Source of the DNA: Carcharhinus amblyrhynchos
Lineage: Eukaryota
Assembly (NCBI GenBank): GCA_965287045.1
Contig: OZ336882.1
Coordinates: 60,140,001-60,204,000, forward strand
Length of the DNA stretch: 64,000 nt
Reading direction: 5' to 3'
Part shown: positions 1 through 6,000 of the stretch, piece by piece
How the letters are laid out: every line of letters starts with the position of its first letter
Numbering within the stretch: position 1 is the first letter of the stretch
Program-made: the position numbers

Positions 1-3000
1 AAATAAATTGATAATGGTCAATGCATTGTGAATCAACATCTCTACCCCAGAATTTGAACAATTTGTATTTAAATTTCATTCAGGTGCTAAATTGATCTCA
101 GAGATTTGAAAAAAAAGTCATTTTTCTCTACAATGTCATTTTTTTCAATCTCTTAATCTAATCATTCTTTTCCTTCTTTCATTTCTCTTTCTCTACCTAA
201 TCTGACTTCAATTAATATAATCCTGTTACTCCATCATTTTTTCCTCTTGATATAGGAGATATATAGAAGGTCCTGCCATCCATTAAGATTCCAGATATTT
301 TATTACCTTCACTGCACTGTTGTCAGATCATTATTGCAGAAAGTTGAGGTAAAAGAATTTAGAGATCGCGATTCAGAGGCGATCCAATATATATATATTG
401 TATTGACTCGCCTTTAAATATATCTCTAGTGTATACTATTCCGCATTGTTTCCTACTTGTGGAACTTATTGAAAATGTTGCTGTATTTTGTAGAATAGAC
501 ATGTCAAATTCTACATATTTATGCTCTTAACACAAACTGGAAATAGAAAACCATCAATAGTATTTCTCCGCCCTACACTGACAATAGTAATTATTCAAAA
601 CATTGATAATTATAATAATCATTTAAAACACTCAATGTATGGTGACTTTCTCTATCAGATTGCAATCCAAGACAACAGAAAATTAATAGTTTCCCTTTGT
701 GGGCTGAGTCCTACTTTGAGACTCCAACATTGGAGGTGACCATAAAGGGTGCCCGCATATCCCAGGAGTCTCTGGGAGCACCCCCCCCACCCCCCCCCAC
801 CCCCCACCCCCCAAGTGCGGCTGAATGTCCCCCCCAAATGGTGATGGACCCTCCCGATGCAGCCCAACTGGCAGCGGGGTGGGAACTGACCCTCAGTTGG
901 GTACTTAAGTGGCTCAATTGGCTACTGCACCTCTCTGTAAAATTCAGCCAATTCTCTCTGTTTATTTGACCGAGAACTGATCTCACTGAAAAGCATAAGG
1001 TTCTGAAGGAAGGGACACCCGCTGAGAGGTTGTTTCCCATGGCTAAGAACAGCCCCAGCTTCGCCAATGAAACTGAAGTCCCTCATCCCTGGAACCAGTC
1101 TCATAAATCTCTTCTGCACTTTCCCTAATGCCTTTACATCCTTATTAAAATGTTATGTCAGAATTGGACACAGTACTGCACTGAAGCTGGACCAATGATT
1201 TATATTGCTCGATCTCCCTGCTTTTGTATTCTATGCCTCTATTTATAAAGCCCATGATCCCAGGTGTCTTATTAATGGATTTCATAACATGCCTTGACAT
1301 TTTCCATGATTTGAGCACTGATACCCCCAGATCTCTCTGCTTTCTTTAGAATTGTTTCTTTTATTTTGTATGACTCCACATTTTTCTTACCCAAATTTAT
1401 CACTTCACACTTCTCTGTATTAATCTTCATTCTCCATTTGTTCGCACATTCATCCAGCCTACCTACATCCTCTTGAAGTCTATCTCTGTGCTCCTTACGT
1501 GTTCACATTATTTATAAACTTTGCAACATCCACAAATTTTGACATTGTGCTCTGTGCACTCATGGATATGGATCACTAATATGGATCAAGAAAAGTACTG
1601 ATCATAATATCGAGCTCTGGGGAACTCCATCTTCCTCTAGTCTGAAAAACAGTCATTGACCATTACTGTCTTTCTGCCAGTCAACCTATTTCTTATCCAT
1701 GCTGCCACTGTACCTTGTATTTAATGGGCTCTAACTTTGTTGTTGATAAAGCTCTAAATGACAGTGTCAGCAAACTCACTAAACTCACCAACCCTCTATG
1801 TTGCCTCGTTAAAAAAACTCAAAACATCAAGATTTATCTTTAACAACAGTTATGGCCAATGCTTCTGCAAATTCCAGCTTTACTTTCTCAGTATCCTCAG
1901 ATGCATCTGATCTCATCCTGATGACATATCAACTTTAGATATAGCCAGCTTTTCTAAAACCTCCTTTTATCAATGTTTAACATATCCAATGTCTCAACTA
2001 CCTTTTTCTTCAGTATGATTTGGTGAAGACAAATGTAATTTACTCATTTACTACCTCAGCCATGCCCTCTGCCTCCATGCATCATTCTCCTTTTTGATTC
2101 ATAATTGACCTCACTCTTCTATTTACCACCCTTTATAAGGTTATCAACGATTTTTAGATTCCTTTTTTATGTCAGCTGCCAGTGTCTTCTCATTCTCTCT
2201 CTTTGCTGCTCTTATTTCTTTTTACTCTTTTCCTCTGGACTTGCTATTTTCAGTTTGGGTTGGACTTTTCAACCTGCAATTCTTTTCTGCTTTCTCCTAC
2301 ACCAACTGTCCTTTGAGGTGGCATGGTGGCACAGTGGTTAGCCCTGCTGCCTCACCGTGCTAGGGACCTGGGTTCAATTCCAGCCTCGGGTGACTGTCTG
2401 AGTAGAATCTACACATTCTCCCAGTGTCATGTTTGGGTTTCCTCTGAATGCTCTAGTTTCCTCCCACAGTCTGAGGAGGCGTGGGTTAGATTGATTGGCC
2501 ATGGTAAGTTGACCCTTGGAGTCAGGGGGATTAGTAGGGTAAACACATGGGTTTATGGTCATAGGGCCCGAATGGGATTGTTGTTTGTGCAGGCTGGATG
2601 GGCTTCCTTCTGCACTGTAGGGATTCTACGATTCTGTCTCCTTCATCATCTGGAAGGCTCTGACTTTTTTTTTCTCCTTTAGCCCTCTTAGGAATGTGCC
2701 TCCTCTGTACCCAACTCTTTCCTCATTAAAGGCAGTTCATTGTTCTATGATGGTTTTGTTTGTAAAAAGTCTGACAACACCAGGTTTTAGTCCAACCTAT
2801 TTATTTGATAATATACTCGCAAGCTTTCGGGTTAGCCCCTTCGTCAGGTGCTAACCTGAAAGCTTGCGAGTATATTATCAAATAAATAGGTTGGACTAAA
2901 ACCTGGTGTTGTCAACCCGAAAGCTTGCGAGTATATTATCAAATAAATAGGTTGGACTAAAACCTGGTGTTGTCAGACTTTTTACTGTGTTTACGCCAGT

Positions 3001-6000
3001 CCAACGCCGGCATACCCACATCATGGTTTTGTTTGTCAGTCTTTGATTCAAATTTACCTGAGATAGACTTATTCTCATCTCTTTGAAATTGGCCCTCCTC
3101 CAGCTTTCTTTTGTTTCTGGAGTGCTACTTGTACTTTTCTATAGTTAACCTAAAATTTATGATACTGTAAGCAATGTCTCCTGCATTTACCTCTCATAAC
3201 ACTTAATCTACTTGACCCACCTCATTCACTGGAACCAGATCCAGGAATACCATCTTCCTCATCGGACTGGGAACATACTGAAATTCCACCTGACCACATT
3301 TCAGAAACTCTTTACCCTCTCTGTTCTTTATTGTGTAATTGTAGTCTCTATTGGGAGAACTGAAATCCCCCATTATATCTACTCTAAAATTCTTGCAACT
3401 TTCTTTAATTTATTTGCAAATTCTTTCTTTATATCTTCCTCCCAGTTGGTAACCTAGAGAATACACCCAGCAATGTAATGATACCGATATTGTTTTTCAG
3501 TTCTGACCAAATAGATAGTGTCTTGACTCCTCTATCAACATCTTTCTCCAGCATTCTAATATTTGCCATAATTAATACTACTACCCCTTCACCTTTCTTT
3601 CCTTCCCTAAATTTAGATTCATAGAATCACAGAATCCCTACAGTGCAGAAGGAGGCCATTTGGTCCATCAAGCTTGCATTGACAACAATCCTATCCAAGT
3701 TCTATCCCCTTAATCCCACGTATTTATCCTACTAATCTCCCTGACACTAAGGGGCAATCTATCATGGCCAGATGGCAGAATAGTGGCAGAGTGGTTAGCA
3801 CTGCTGCCTCATCGTGCCAGGGACCCAGTTCAATTCCAGCCTCGGATCATTGTCTGAGTGGAGTTTGCATGTTCTTCCCATGTTTATATGGGTTTCCTTC
3901 GGGAGCTCTGGTTTCCTCCCACAGTCCAAAAATGTGCAGATTAGGTTGATTGACCATGCTAAATTGATGCTAGTATTAAGCGGATTAGCGGAATAAATAT
4001 GCAGGGTTACAGGAATAGGGCCTGAGTGGGATTGTGGTCAGAACAAACTTGATGGGTCGAATGGCCTTTTTCTATACTGTAAGGATTCTATGAAGCAACC
4101 TAACTTTGCAATGTGAGAAGAAACTGGAACATCTGGAAGAAATCCAAGCAGACACAGGGAGAATGTGCAAACGCCACATAGACAGTGACCTAAGGAATTG
4201 AACCCGGTCCTGCGTCCCAAGCATGCGGGGAATTACAGAAAGCAAAGGTGTAATTAACTGTGGGAGCAGCTGCTGACAGTAAAGCTGTTCACACAGGTCA
4301 GCCCTGGTATTTCTGGAGATGTGACTGGCAAACACATCAGTGCTATTGTTTTTGTGGAACTTCAGGCGGTTCAGTGAGAGTCCTGATCTATAGTTTTCAC
4401 TGCGTGTTGCTCTCTCACTAGTGCTATCAACAATCAACCTTTTCTTCAAACAATCAATAACAACCTGGCAAATTGTGCAAGATAGCTTCTCAGGGTCAGC
4501 GTGAAAACAAAATCCCATTTAAGTACAATCCGAAACTCAAACAATTTTAGCTCTTTTTAGGCAGTTGTTGATTATTAGTGATTGACAGATAGTCTCACCG
4601 ACAATGAGACCAGCTTTTGACCTTACCCAAATAATTAATGTGAAGCATCACACATCTGTCCCTATTTGACAACTATGTGACACTGTGGCCAATTCTCCAT
4701 TCTGAGCTTGCATGTATTGTGTGTAATGTTAATAAATATGGAATCAGATTGCATCAGCTCATAAACTACACAAGAGTTAAGAATTTTTATGAGTTTGCAA
4801 ATTTCATGGTAAGTTTTCATTTCTCTGCGGCAGCTGCTAATTCATTACAAATAGAAAGGGTCTTTGATCATATGCTATGTTTTAAAATTAGTATATACTA
4901 CATTAAAGATCTGCTTTACCTCCCCATAGTGTGAAAGGTTTGCTGCTTTATGTTACATATGGGCCCTGTTGCTCATTACAATATAAAATGCTTGCTTTTC
5001 TATACTATATACCCTATATGCTAACGAGCATAAAAGTTCTGGGATATATATATATATGTGTATACATATATTTAATTATTATTTACTGCTCTATTTATTA
5101 TAAAAATTCTGATTTTGGAGAGTTTTTTGATGATAAAACGTCAATGTTCACGGTCATTACCTGTCTGAAACTAACTCTAACTGCCGGATTTCTTGCAAGG
5201 TCATTAACATTTTTAAGTTGCAGTCTGTTTTTCACTGCTCTGCTACAGGCTTCATTGTTCCTCCCTCCTTCCTCAGCCCCCACGCCAGCCCTCACTGGAA
5301 ACTGTTTAAAATTCACTTGATTTTTGTGCTTTTCTTTTCCTAGTTGGCTGTCTTTGAGAATACTTTAATACGATTGGCTGTTTGGACAGCTTGACGTAAT
5401 TCCTACAGCACCATACTAGAAATCCCCCCATTAAAGAACATGGCAAACTATTGGGTGGGAGGGGGTAAAGTTTTGATCACAGAAATCAATAAATCTCTCA
5501 GTGTGGCTTTCTTTGAGGTCAACAGTGAATGCCTTGGCTCCTCTGCTGACCCAAAGCACCAGCCTACATAAAAGGTCTATCATTCTATATTTTATATATA
5601 TAATATATATAATAGTGTCTGCTATTCTCTGTAATATTTATCTAGGATCTGCTGCACCAATATAAATAATATCATTTATGCTGTCTTAGTGCAAGAAGGC
5701 ATAGTTTTAAGGTGAGAGAGGAAAGATTTAAAAGCAATCTGAGGGGCAACTTTTTCACACAGAGGATGATATATGTATGGAATGAGATGCCAGAGGAGGT
5801 GGTAGAGGCGGGTACAATTACTACATTTAAAAGTGGAGAGGTACATGGATAAGAAAGGTGTAGAAGGATATGGGCCAACTGCAGGCGAATGGGACCAGTT
5901 CAGTTTAGACATGGACAAGTCGGCCCGAAGGGCCTGTTCCCGTGTGTGTATCTCTATGACTCTATGACAGTGCTGGTGTAACAGTGGGCTATCGTATCAA

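What the first reader, a model, noticed from the sequence alone, without database searches (positions are those of the whole stretch)
2750..3036. Second independent insertion of the same hairpin element, with the same fold-back point and a 61-bp template jump
Seen: a different 14-bp TSD, yet the sequence is identical to the 28.7 kb copy except one substitution in the duplicated unit. In both copies the inverted arm ends 3-4 nt outside the CUGACGA core (..tcaggtg) and the other arm restarts in or next to stem II. Here it restarts twice (2853 and 2914), and every junction lies in the ribozyme. Inference: the ribozyme fold, or a defined RNA end there, sets where reverse transcription stalls and switches. 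Alternatively a fixed hairpin master copy is amplifying.
Basis: partly seen in the sequence, partly recalled or inferred. Interest (0 to 1): 0.7.

Follow-up and report, generated by a model that had tools for sequence, protein, structure and literature searches.

The report
Hairpin-shaped Penelope-like retroelement insertions
Two very young, independent insertions of the last ~130 bases of a hammerhead-carrying Penelope-like retrotransposon, each laid down as an inverted pair of copies, which is the known odd way these elements insert and not a new kind of element.

Summary
Window 2764-3022 is an insertion flanked by an exact 14-bp target duplication. Base for base it is the same element as 28700-28931, which has a different 12-bp duplication, apart from one CpG>TpG change. 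Both have an antisense arm ending 3 nt outside a CTGACGA...GAAA hammerhead core, then a sense arm restarting 9-18 nt further in. Copy 1 also has a 61-bp repeated unit.

It is best read as a Penelope-like element (PLE) stub. The marks are a minimal-hammerhead core, variable 12-14 bp duplications, extreme 5' truncation, a head-to-head inverted partner, a sense arm 39-51 nt longer at its outer end (the published "tail" asymmetry), and an AC-rich 3' end. Two older relatives in the window (15.1 kb, 60.3 kb) share this build. One of them folds back far from the ribozyme.

Likeliest mechanism (inferred): both nicked target strands prime cDNA, both run towards one short RNA's 5' end, and they join by microhomology or snap-back.

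A defined RNA end, or an inherited junction from a master copy, remains open. No eukaryotic genome collection was available, so the genome-wide breakpoint histogram was not done. The finding is ordinary for PLEs but a clean example.

The parts
2750..2763 (.). Left target-site duplication of copy 1 (14 bp)
   Evidence: Exact repeat of 3023-3036. These are its only two occurrences in the window.
2764..2850 (-). Copy 1 antisense (inverted) arm = sense 86->0. On the - strand it carries the only complete minimal-hammerhead core of this copy (2847->2821).
   Evidence: 87-nt exact match to the reverse complement of the copy 2 arm. Descriptor hit.
2851..2914 (+). Copy 1 first sense unit = sense 15->78. 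It starts in loop II and holds the C>T change at 2857 (a CpG site). With 2772-2840 it forms an almost perfect fold-back with a 5-nt loop.
   Evidence: inverted pair I2: 69 nt, 97% complementary, 5 nt between the arms.
2914..3022 (+). Copy 1 second sense unit = sense 17/18->125, ending ...CCCACATC. The next 3 nt (ATG) are ambiguous between element and target.
   Evidence: 109-nt exact match. 61-nt direct repeat 2853-2913 / 2914-2974.
3023..3036 (.). Right target-site duplication of copy 1
28688..28699 (.). Left target-site duplication of copy 2 (12 bp)
   Evidence: Exact repeat of 28932-28943.
28700..28797 (-). Copy 2 antisense arm = sense 97->0, with the minimal-hammerhead core on the - strand at 28794->28768
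28798..28798 (+). One extra A at the fold-back junction, templated by neither arm
   Evidence: the sense-arm match starts one base after the arm boundary.
28799..28931 (+). Copy 2 sense arm = sense 9->141. The last 16 nt (28916-28931) extend beyond the ...CACATC end used by the other copies.
   Evidence: 133-nt exact run. 89-nt inverted repeat, 100% complementary, 10 nt between the arms.
28932..28943 (.). Right target-site duplication of copy 2
15112..15223 (-). Older relative (copy 3). Body 15126-15209 between 14-bp duplications. On the - strand: a 16-nt antisense arm (sense ~74->59), a 3-nt loop, then a sense arm from ~56 to ~123-125. Its fold-back lies outside the ribozyme.
60262..60501 (+). 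Older relative (copy 4). Body 60275-60488 between 13-bp duplications. Antisense arm 60275-60357 (sense 86->0, with CTGATGA on the - strand), then 131 nt with no counterpart in the window, ending CACATCAT.

Best explanation
Each locus is a dead-on-arrival, extremely 5'-truncated insertion of the 3'-terminal ~126-142 nt of a hammerhead-bearing Penelope-like element RNA (the end of its pseudo-LTR). It was laid down in the PLE-typical head-to-head form.

Proposed steps (all inferred unless marked shown):
1. The element's endonuclease makes staggered nicks 12-14 bp apart. Shown: target duplications of 12 and 14 bp.
2. The bottom-strand 3'-OH primes cDNA at the usual AC-rich 3' start (sense ~125, or 141 in copy 2). 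The top-strand 3'-OH primes a second cDNA about 40 nt further in (sense 86 or 97).
3. The top-strand cDNA runs to sense 0. I take this to be the 5' end of a short template RNA.
4. Its 3' end (…AGGTG) then switches template.
- In copy 1 it pairs with CCCCT 5 nt back (4 of 5 pairs) and copies its own cDNA from sense 15 to 78, just short of that cDNA's start at 86. It then jumps, with a 1-nt overlap, to the end of the bottom-strand cDNA at sense 17/18. That yields the apparent '61-bp duplication'.
- In copy 2 it jumps straight onto the bottom-strand cDNA end at sense 9, with one untemplated A.

The restarts fall in helix II because helix II lies 10-21 nt from that RNA end and is partly self-complementary with it. 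They do not fall there because the ribozyme folds or cuts.
For: What the sequence shows:
- Anatomy and exact identities.
- Neither arm is a subset of the other. The antisense arm alone holds sense 0-8/14. The sense arm alone holds sense 87/98-125/141. So both arms were copied from RNA, and simple snap-back is excluded.

PLE hallmarks:
- A minimal-hammerhead core with CUGANGA and GAAA boxes, the extra base between positions 9 and 10.1, a G10.1-C11.1 pair and a palindromic 15.2/16.2 pair. These are the features listed in PMC4209133 (parts 1-2 of 4 read). The core was found only in these two copies, against a null mean of 0.005 per window.
- Variable 12-14 bp duplications at 4 of 4 loci, 58-85% A+T against 57% for the window.
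- The 3' 46 nt are 72% A+C, with a small stem-loop. The distance from the predicted cut to the 3' end is 96 nt. In the anole PLE, RT starts in an AC-rich stem-loop 85-92 nt past the cut (PMC11167929).
- That enzyme cleaves AND extends both strands, and its products shorten with 5'-truncated templates.
- 'An inverted 5'-truncated copy ... immediately adjacent' and a 30-40 bp tail at one end are described as typical (PMC8557442). An inverted pLTR 37 bp shorter than the direct one, and palindromes at the inverted junction read as self-priming, are also described (PMC3846280).
- Here the sense arm outreaches the antisense arm by 39, 44, ~49 and ~41 nt in 4 of 4 insertions from three subfamilies. 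Two antisense arms of diverged families start at the same base, sense 86.
- De novo PLE insertions in Chlamydomonas have a median length of 128 bp (PMC9977147, passage).

Age: CpG o/e is 0.83-0.86 in the copies against 0.28 in the window. The single difference between the copies is at a CpG.

Copy 1 specifically: its first unit ends at sense 78, 8 nt short of the antisense arm's start at 86, as self-copying predicts.
Against: - No RT/GIY-YIG gene and no longer copy of this family is in the window. PLE membership therefore rests on the ribozyme core and on insertion anatomy.
- Rfam found no hammerhead at E<=10 in copy 1, copy 2 or copy 4 (0 of 14, 0 of 7 and 0 of 5 matches).
- Nothing shows that an RNA 5' end exists at sense 0. 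The predicted hammerhead cut is 30 nt away, so it does not make that end.
- In both young copies it is the same (antisense) arm that is complete at the apex. A symmetric run-off model gives that only half the time. A master copy gives it always.
- The sample is two young copies plus two old ones, and the apex of one old copy cannot be placed.
Confidence: 0.5

Rival explanations
1. Hairpin master copy. One source locus already carries the antisense/sense junction. This could be a PLE with the usual inverted pseudo-LTR abutting its direct one. Read-through RNA is reverse-transcribed through the junction. New copies then inherit the apex and differ by RT start site (with or without the 16 nt) and by 5' truncation in the antisense arm. 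Copy 1's missing 7 nt and its 61-nt repeat would be RT slips at the apex of the RNA hairpin.
For: - The antisense-arm end is identical to the base in both copies, and the copies are otherwise 100% identical.
- The same arm is complete in both copies.
- The 7 nt missing in copy 1 lie between near-repeats AGGTG and AGGGG, as a slip would give.
- The RNA would fold into an 89-bp stem (-166.6 kcal/mol, z -26), a plausible place for template jumps.
- PLEs with inverted plus direct pLTRs are common and can give rise to copies of identical layout (PMC3846280).
Against: - The two copies do not share one junction. The restarts are at sense 9+A versus 15, plus a further restart at 17/18, so two extra events must be assumed in copy 1.
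- The antisense-arm outer ends (86, 97) would be random truncations. Yet they fall with those of two unrelated older insertions (74, 86), always 39-51 nt inside the sense-arm end.
- Copy 3, and probably copy 4, have other apices, so hairpins do form anew in this superfamily.
- The short copies lack the sequence 3' of the RT start that the anole enzyme needs in its template, namely the first 172 nt of the ORF with RT starting at +111-118. They cannot themselves be masters.
- This model gives no reason why copy 1's first unit ends at sense 78.
Confidence: 0.22
2. One reading: the folded hammerhead (or its self-cleavage) stalls reverse transcriptase and so dictates where it switches template.
For: Four acceptor points (sense 0, 9, 15, 17/18) lie within or 3 nt outside a 27-nt core motif in an element of about 142 nt.
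Against: - The points lie beyond the helices, not before them, in the direction RT travels. Helix II has only 3 bp.
- The sense RNA is no more stable than shuffles (z 0.47 and 0.37).
- No junction lies at the predicted cut site.
- Catalytic hammerhead mutants did not change insertion or product size in vitro, and no RNA ends were seen at the cut site (PMC11167929).
- Copy 3 folds back at sense ~56-59.
- The hairpin copies hold only 3 nt of the 5' strand of helix I, so the ribozyme here is incomplete.
Confidence: 0.07
3. The 61-bp repeat in copy 1 is not a reverse-transcription event. It is either a later tandem duplication (replication slippage in a hairpin-forming stretch) or an assembly artefact. 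This concerns the duplication only and is compatible with either model above.
For: - It is a perfect head-to-tail arrangement with a 1-nt junction overlap.
- Long near-perfect palindromes are hard to assemble, and PLE structures are said to trouble assemblies (PMC8557442).
- The only substitution sits in one of the two units.
Against: - The two units differ by a CpG>TpG change, so they are not a trivially repeated stretch.
- The unit boundaries (sense 78, just inside the antisense arm's start at 86; and 17/18, beside the other restart points) fit a self-copy-then-jump path better than a random tandem duplication.
Confidence: 0.2
4. A DNA-level foldback element or MITE moved by a transposase, not a retroelement.
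For: Long terminal inverted repeat and flanking direct repeats.
Against: - Duplication length varies (12, 13, 14, 14 bp).
- The two ends are not symmetric: one arm is 39-51 nt longer.
- The outer ends differ between copies that are otherwise identical.
- The apex differs between copies.
- A hammerhead core and an AC-rich 3' end are present, as in PLEs.
Confidence: 0.03

Closest known systems
Head-to-head (inverted plus direct) pseudo-LTR arrangement of endonuclease-containing Penelope-like elements, with the optional 30-40 bp 'tail' (PMC8557442, PMC3846280; passages read)
   Same: - An inverted 5'-truncated copy abuts a direct one.
- One end is about 40 nt longer.
- Target duplications are short and of variable length.
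- Targets are AT-rich.
- There is a palindromic junction.
- A hammerhead lies in the repeated part.
   Different: - Here nothing lies between or after the two arms. The whole insertion is only 232-259 bp, with no ORF.
- The apex sits at the ribozyme core, not at a mapped pLTR 5' end.
- Copy 1 has an extra nested unit.
Anole Poseidon element PAc in vitro (PMC11167929; main text read)
   Same: - Cleavage and extension of both target strands.
- Internal RT start in an AC-rich stem-loop about 90 nt 3' of the hammerhead cut.
- Two nearby start sites explaining a tail.
- Run-off on 5'-shortened templates.
- The ribozyme is dispensable for insertion.
   Different: - Different host and sequence.
- In vitro, the start sites did not differ between strands. 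Here the antisense arm always starts about 40 nt further in.
- In PAc the ORF begins in stem II. Here the frames through the core hold stop codons (read), and the first ATG follows ...CACATC.
Minimal hammerheads of metazoan PLEs (PMC4209133; parts 1-2 of 4 read)
   Same: - The core boxes.
- An unpaired base before helix II.
- The G10.1-C11.1 pair.
- The palindromic AGCU in place of helix III.
- Occurrence mostly as single truncated copies. Pairs on opposite strands 100-700 bp apart are reported in Schistosoma.
   Different: - Helix II here is 3 bp, against 'larger than usual' (7-8 bp) in Schistosoma.
- Helix I cannot be judged.
- There is no Rfam hit.
- Cleavage is untested.
L1 twin priming and end-to-end template jumping of non-LTR reverse transcriptases (recalled from memory; no call)
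   Same: - The top-strand 3'-OH primes a second cDNA, giving a 5' inversion.
- Junctions show microhomology or a few untemplated bases.
   Different: In L1 the two segments come from adjacent, essentially non-overlapping parts of one RNA. Here the arms overlap by 70-89 nt, so the same RNA stretch was copied twice.
Animal non-LTR retrozymes (bioRxiv 10.64898/2026.07.22.740005; abstract and passages)
   Same: Short non-coding hammerhead-bearing sequences related to PLE pLTRs, present in non-mammalian vertebrates.
   Different: Retrozymes are direct tandem repeats, each with a full ribozyme. Here the arms are inverted, and the 61-bp repeat lacks the CUGANGA box.

Membership tests
PLE-derived 5'-truncated insertion (pseudo-LTR end) | Hammerhead motif of the PLE minimal type in the repeated part | tested here: met
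   My descriptor, written from the features listed in PMC4209133, hits 2847->2821 and 28794->28768 only. Null: 1 of 200 simulated windows had any hit.
PLE-derived 5'-truncated insertion (pseudo-LTR end) | Short target-site duplications of variable length at AT-rich sites | tested here: met
   12, 13, 14 and 14 bp at 4 of 4 loci. A+T is 58-85% against 57% for the window, so the AT bias is modest.
PLE-derived 5'-truncated insertion (pseudo-LTR end) | Adjacent inverted 5'-truncated copy (head-to-head) with a 30-40 bp extension at one end only | tested here: met
   4 of 4 loci have an antisense part followed by a sense 3' end. The sense arm is longer at its outer end by 39, 44, ~49 and ~41 nt, slightly above the published 30-40.
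PLE-derived 5'-truncated insertion (pseudo-LTR end) | Sequence homology to the pLTR of an autonomous element encoding RT plus a GIY-YIG endonuclease | not testable with these tools
   No PLE ORF in the window: of the 16 longest of 41 stop-free frames, only an APE-type LINE RT scored. No eukaryotic genome or repeat library was on hand.
Autonomous Penelope-like element | Single ORF with a telomerase-like RT and a GIY-YIG endonuclease | tested here: not met
   The insertions are 232-259 bp and non-coding. They are products of such an element, not members.
Hammerhead ribozyme (Rfam models) | Match to a curated hammerhead covariance model | tested here: not met
   No hammerhead family at the gathering score in the window, nor at E<=10 in three of the loci. 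This is expected for a helix-III-less motif that also lacks the 5' strand of helix I here.
Hammerhead ribozyme (functional) | Helix I of at least 4-5 bp, and self-cleavage | tested here: inconclusive
   Only 3 nt (CAC) of the 5' strand are present, and 2 of 3 can pair with GCG after the predicted cut (read). Cleavage is not testable here.
Animal non-LTR retrozyme | Direct tandem repeats each carrying a complete hammerhead | tested here: not met
   The arms are inverted. The only direct repeat (61 nt) starts in loop II and lacks CUGANGA.
L1-type twin-priming inversion | Inverted and direct segments derive from adjacent, non-overlapping RNA parts | tested here: not met
   The arms overlap by 72-89 nt of the same RNA stretch.
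MITE / foldback DNA transposon | Fixed termini and fixed duplication length | tested here: not met
   Identical copies differ at both outer ends. Duplications are 12 and 14 bp.

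The most novel reading that the evidence does not exclude
The apex of these hairpins is fixed by biology tied to the ribozyme region. The template would be a short RNA whose 5' end is made 3 nt upstream of the hammerhead core, by a transcription start or by a processing event other than the canonical cut. The two halves of a dimeric PLE complex would start on that one RNA about 40 nt apart, one per nicked strand. 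The leading enzyme runs off the end while the trailing one is held 9-18 nt behind it, and the leading cDNA then switches onto the trailing one. If so, nucleotide-level 'fossils' like these would record the order of events in both-strand target-primed reverse transcription. They would also give the PLE hammerhead region a first role in shaping insertions.
Probability: 0.12. Interest if true: 0.6.

Novelty: new member of a known kind. Interest (0 to 1): 0.3.

Why it matters
How Penelope-like elements build their odd tandem and inverted insertions is still largely unknown. The only biochemical study in the searched library (2024) showed cleavage and extension of both strands, but not how the two cDNAs are joined.

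These two insertions are essentially unmutated, so every junction can be read to the base. They show that both arms must have been copied from RNA, with a constant ~40-nt offset of the two starts. They also show joins with 0-1 nt overlap, an untemplated base, or a 4-of-5 microhomology.

This is a useful worked example and gives a clear genome-wide test. It does not change the picture of PLEs, and it does not show a role for the ribozyme.

Tried and rejected
- Rfam, whole window at gathering score: one tRNA-like match, no ribozyme.
- Rfam at E<=10 on copies 1, 2 and 4: only microRNA, snoRNA and sRNA models picking up the long hairpin.
- One pattern search had the wrong spacer length (13 N instead of 12) and was uninformative: 2 matches against 1.86 expected. 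A script descriptor replaced it.
- Search for a PLE gene in the window: 41 stop-free frames of 110 aa or more were listed. I sent the 16 longest or nearest to Pfam. Only a LINE scored (Exo_endo_phos + RVT_1, with a GDSL-domain frame). The other 25 frames were not scanned.
- More copies in the window: blastn and an nhmmer profile of four arms found only the four loci. Four further nhmmer hits had E 0.95-7.4 and were treated as noise.
- Empty-site paralogues: the flanks hit only diverged SINE-like repeats, none spanning an insertion site.
- Paper search for four 17-nt strings of the element: 0 papers.
- Interior of copy 4 (60358-60488): no significant similarity to the young element or to its own antisense arm. 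345 of 1000 and 513 of 1000 shuffles reached the observed score. The stretch is unique in the window. An apparent match of its start to helix II/GAAA under laxer scoring was therefore dropped.
- Pure snap-back of one cDNA: rejected, because each arm holds sequence the other lacks.
- A long-helix-III version of the hammerhead, with the cut near sense 83: the older family has a stable hairpin there (z -4.4), but the young family does not, and helix I would not pair. I kept the minimal form.
- In print? Searches found no paper in the library that maps PLE inversion junctions relative to the hammerhead.

Not available:
- Any eukaryotic genome, read set or repeat library.
- The collections metagenome contigs and viral contigs (closed).
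- Supplementary files. The supplementary figures of PMC4209133 (vertebrate minimal hammerheads) and Figs S1-S2 of PMC11167929 (genomic tails) could bear on the family assignment and on the tail reading.

Full report
**1. What is there**

I use a 'sense' coordinate throughout. It is 0-based, with 0 = the first C of the CAC that precedes CTGACGA. It was defined by script from the two arms of the 28.7-kb copy.

Copy 1:
- Exact 14-bp target duplication at 2750-2763 and 3023-3036.
- Antisense arm 2764-2850 (sense 86->0).
- Sense unit 2851-2914 (15->78).
- Sense unit 2914-3022 (17/18->125).
- The next three bases, ATG, could belong to the element or to the target.

Copy 2:
- 12-bp duplication at 28688-28699 and 28932-28943.
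- Antisense arm 28700-28797 (97->0).
- One extra A at 28798.
- Sense arm 28799-28931 (9->141).

All shared stretches are exact. The only exception is C>T at 2857, a CpG site. The flanks are unrelated.

**2. The ribozyme**

Rfam reports no hammerhead, either at gathering score over the window or at E<=10 over copies 1, 2 and 4.

The - strand of each antisense arm nevertheless carries every core feature that Cervera and de la Peña list for PLE minimal hammerheads (PMC4209133, parts 1-2 of 4 read):
- CUGACGA.
- An unpaired A.
- G10.1...C11.1 closing a 3-bp helix II.
- GAAA.
- A palindromic AGCU in place of helix III.
- U at position 17.

A descriptor I wrote from those features hits only these two places. 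In 200 first-order-Markov simulated windows the mean was 0.005 loci, and 1 of 200 had any hit.

Helix I cannot be judged because only CAC remains of its 5' strand. The sense arms lack CUGACGA. Each insertion therefore holds one incomplete ribozyme, and cleavage is untested. The predicted cut (after sense 29) coincides with none of the junctions.

**3. Relatives in the window**

A 20-nt motif, blastn and an nhmmer profile find just four loci.

- Copy 3: - strand, body 15126-15209, 14-bp duplications. It has a 16-nt antisense arm (sense ~74->59), a 3-nt loop, and a sense arm from ~56 to ~123-125. Its fold-back is about 27 nt 3' of the predicted cut.
- Copy 4: body 60275-60488, 13-bp duplications. 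It has an antisense arm of 83 nt (sense 86->0, with CTGATGA on the - strand). Then come 131 nt that match nothing else, ending in CACATCAT next to the right duplication. Its apex cannot be placed. Either the element continues upstream, or the arm also ends near sense 0. An 8-bp inverted repeat straddles that point.

In all four insertions the sense arm ends at ...CACATC (plus or minus 2 nt; plus 16 nt in copy 2). The antisense arm starts 39, 44, ~49 and ~41 nt further in. Copies 1 and 4 start at the same base, sense 86.

**4. What it is**

No PLE gene lies in the window. The only RT is an APE-type LINE at about 24.3-28.3 kb. The assignment therefore rests on anatomy plus the ribozyme core:
- Variable 12-14 bp duplications.
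- Extreme 5' truncation.
- A head-to-head inverted partner.
- A one-sided extension of about 40 nt.
- A 3' end that is 72% A+C, with a small stem-loop.

These match published PLE traits:
- 'An inverted 5'-truncated copy ... immediately adjacent', and a 30-40 bp tail at one end (PMC8557442, passages).
- An inverted pLTR 37 bp shorter than the direct one, and palindromes at inverted junctions read as self-priming (PMC3846280, passages).
- Pairs of minimal hammerheads on opposite strands 100-700 bp apart in Schistosoma.
- De novo PLE insertions with a median length of 128 bp (PMC9977147, passage).

The anole element PAc cleaves and extends both strands. It starts RT internally at two nearby sites in an AC-rich stem-loop 85-92 nt past the hammerhead cut (96 nt here). 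It gives shorter products from 5'-shortened RNAs. It inserts equally well with a dead ribozyme (PMC11167929, main text).

The copies are very young. Their CpG o/e is 0.83-0.86 against 0.28 for the window.

I take the window to be from a non-mammalian vertebrate, not human:
- Minimal hammerhead families were not found in mammals.
- Retrozymes and PLEs are reported absent from mammals.
- My impression that the SINE-like repeats look like those of cartilaginous fishes is recalled, not tested.

**5. Mechanism**

Shown by the sequence: neither arm is contained in the other, so both were copied from RNA, or from a longer template.

Preferred model (inferred):
1. Both nicked strands prime cDNA, the bottom strand at the usual 3' start and the top strand about 40 nt further in.
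2. The top-strand cDNA runs to sense 0, taken to be the 5' end of a short RNA.
3. It then switches template.
- In copy 1 its 3' AGGTG pairs with CCCCT five bases back (4 of 5 pairs, 5-nt loop). It copies its own cDNA from 15 to 78, 8 nt short of that cDNA's start. It then jumps with a 1-nt overlap to the other cDNA's end at 17/18. This accounts for the '61-bp duplication' and for where it ends.
- In copy 2 it jumps directly to the other cDNA's end at sense 9, with one untemplated A.

The restarts lie in helix II because helix II lies 10-21 nt from that end and is partly complementary to it.

**6. Rivals**

- A hairpin master copy explains the identical antisense end, and why the same arm is complete in both copies. 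It needs two extra slips in copy 1. It treats the clustered antisense outer ends as chance. It gives no reason for the stop at sense 78. The short copies themselves lack the 3' sequence that the anole enzyme requires in its template.
- A ribozyme-fold stall is unlikely. The switch points lie beyond the helices in the direction RT travels. The sense RNA is no more stable than shuffles. The in vitro data argue against a role for cleavage.
- The 61-bp unit could instead be a later tandem duplication or an assembly artefact. The one-base difference between the units, and their boundaries, argue mildly against that.
- A DNA transposon is excluded by the variable duplications and the asymmetric, variable ends.

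**7. Limits**

The sample is two young and two old insertions. No eukaryotic genome, reads or repeat library was available. The only open collection holds bacteria and archaea and gave two chance hits. Searches found no paper in the library that maps PLE inversion junctions against the hammerhead. That histogram remains the decisive, and apparently unpublished, test.

**8. Verdict**

It is a new, unusually clean member of a known kind: PLE head-to-head truncated insertions. A causal role for the ribozyme is not supported. A defined RNA 5' end and an inherited junction both remain open.

Noticed in passing
window 24331-28325 (- strand): A LINE. It has a 765-aa stop-free frame (25064-27361) with Exo_endo_phos and RVT_1 domains. 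This is preceded by a 188-aa frame (27328-27894) with a GDSL lipase/esterase domain. Copy 2 sits about 370 bp beyond its 5' side.
   Followed up: partly
window 2321-2636, 3623-4093, 6626-6947, 28990-29480, 45456-45784, 63184-63380 and others: A SINE-like repeat in many diverged copies (68-78% identity). It flanks both young insertions.
   Followed up: no
window 56329-56401 (- strand): A tRNA-like sequence (Rfam tRNA, 36.2 bits) next to a SINE-like repeat hit at 56116-56305. It is probably the head of a tRNA-derived SINE and not a tRNA gene.
   Followed up: no
window 60275-60420 (- strand): The older family has a stable ~50-nt hairpin directly 3' of GAAAGCU (z -4.4 for the 146-nt stretch). The young family keeps it only in degenerate form. 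In the young sense RNA, CUGACGA can instead pair with UUGUCAG at sense 73-79.
   Followed up: partly
window 60351-60380: An 8-bp inverted repeat, TCAGGTGA ... TCACCTGA, with a 14-nt spacer. It straddles the very point (sense 0) where the young antisense arms end. This may be a relic of a fold-back or part of the natural upstream sequence.
   Followed up: partly
window 28916-28931: The 16-nt extension in copy 2 begins with ATG directly after ...CACATC. Copy 4 also continues with AT, and copy 1's ambiguous bases are ATG. It may be the start of the element's ORF, as pLTRs of other PLEs include the first codons. Untested.
   Followed up: no
window 2750-2763 and 28688-28699: The two target duplications share the heptamer CAAACAA, on opposite strands relative to the sense arm. 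This is a possible hint of a target preference (read).
   Followed up: no
window 2764-3022 and 28700-28931: CpG observed/expected is 0.83-0.86 in the two insertions against 0.28 for the window. They are recent enough that they might be polymorphic in the population.
   Followed up: partly
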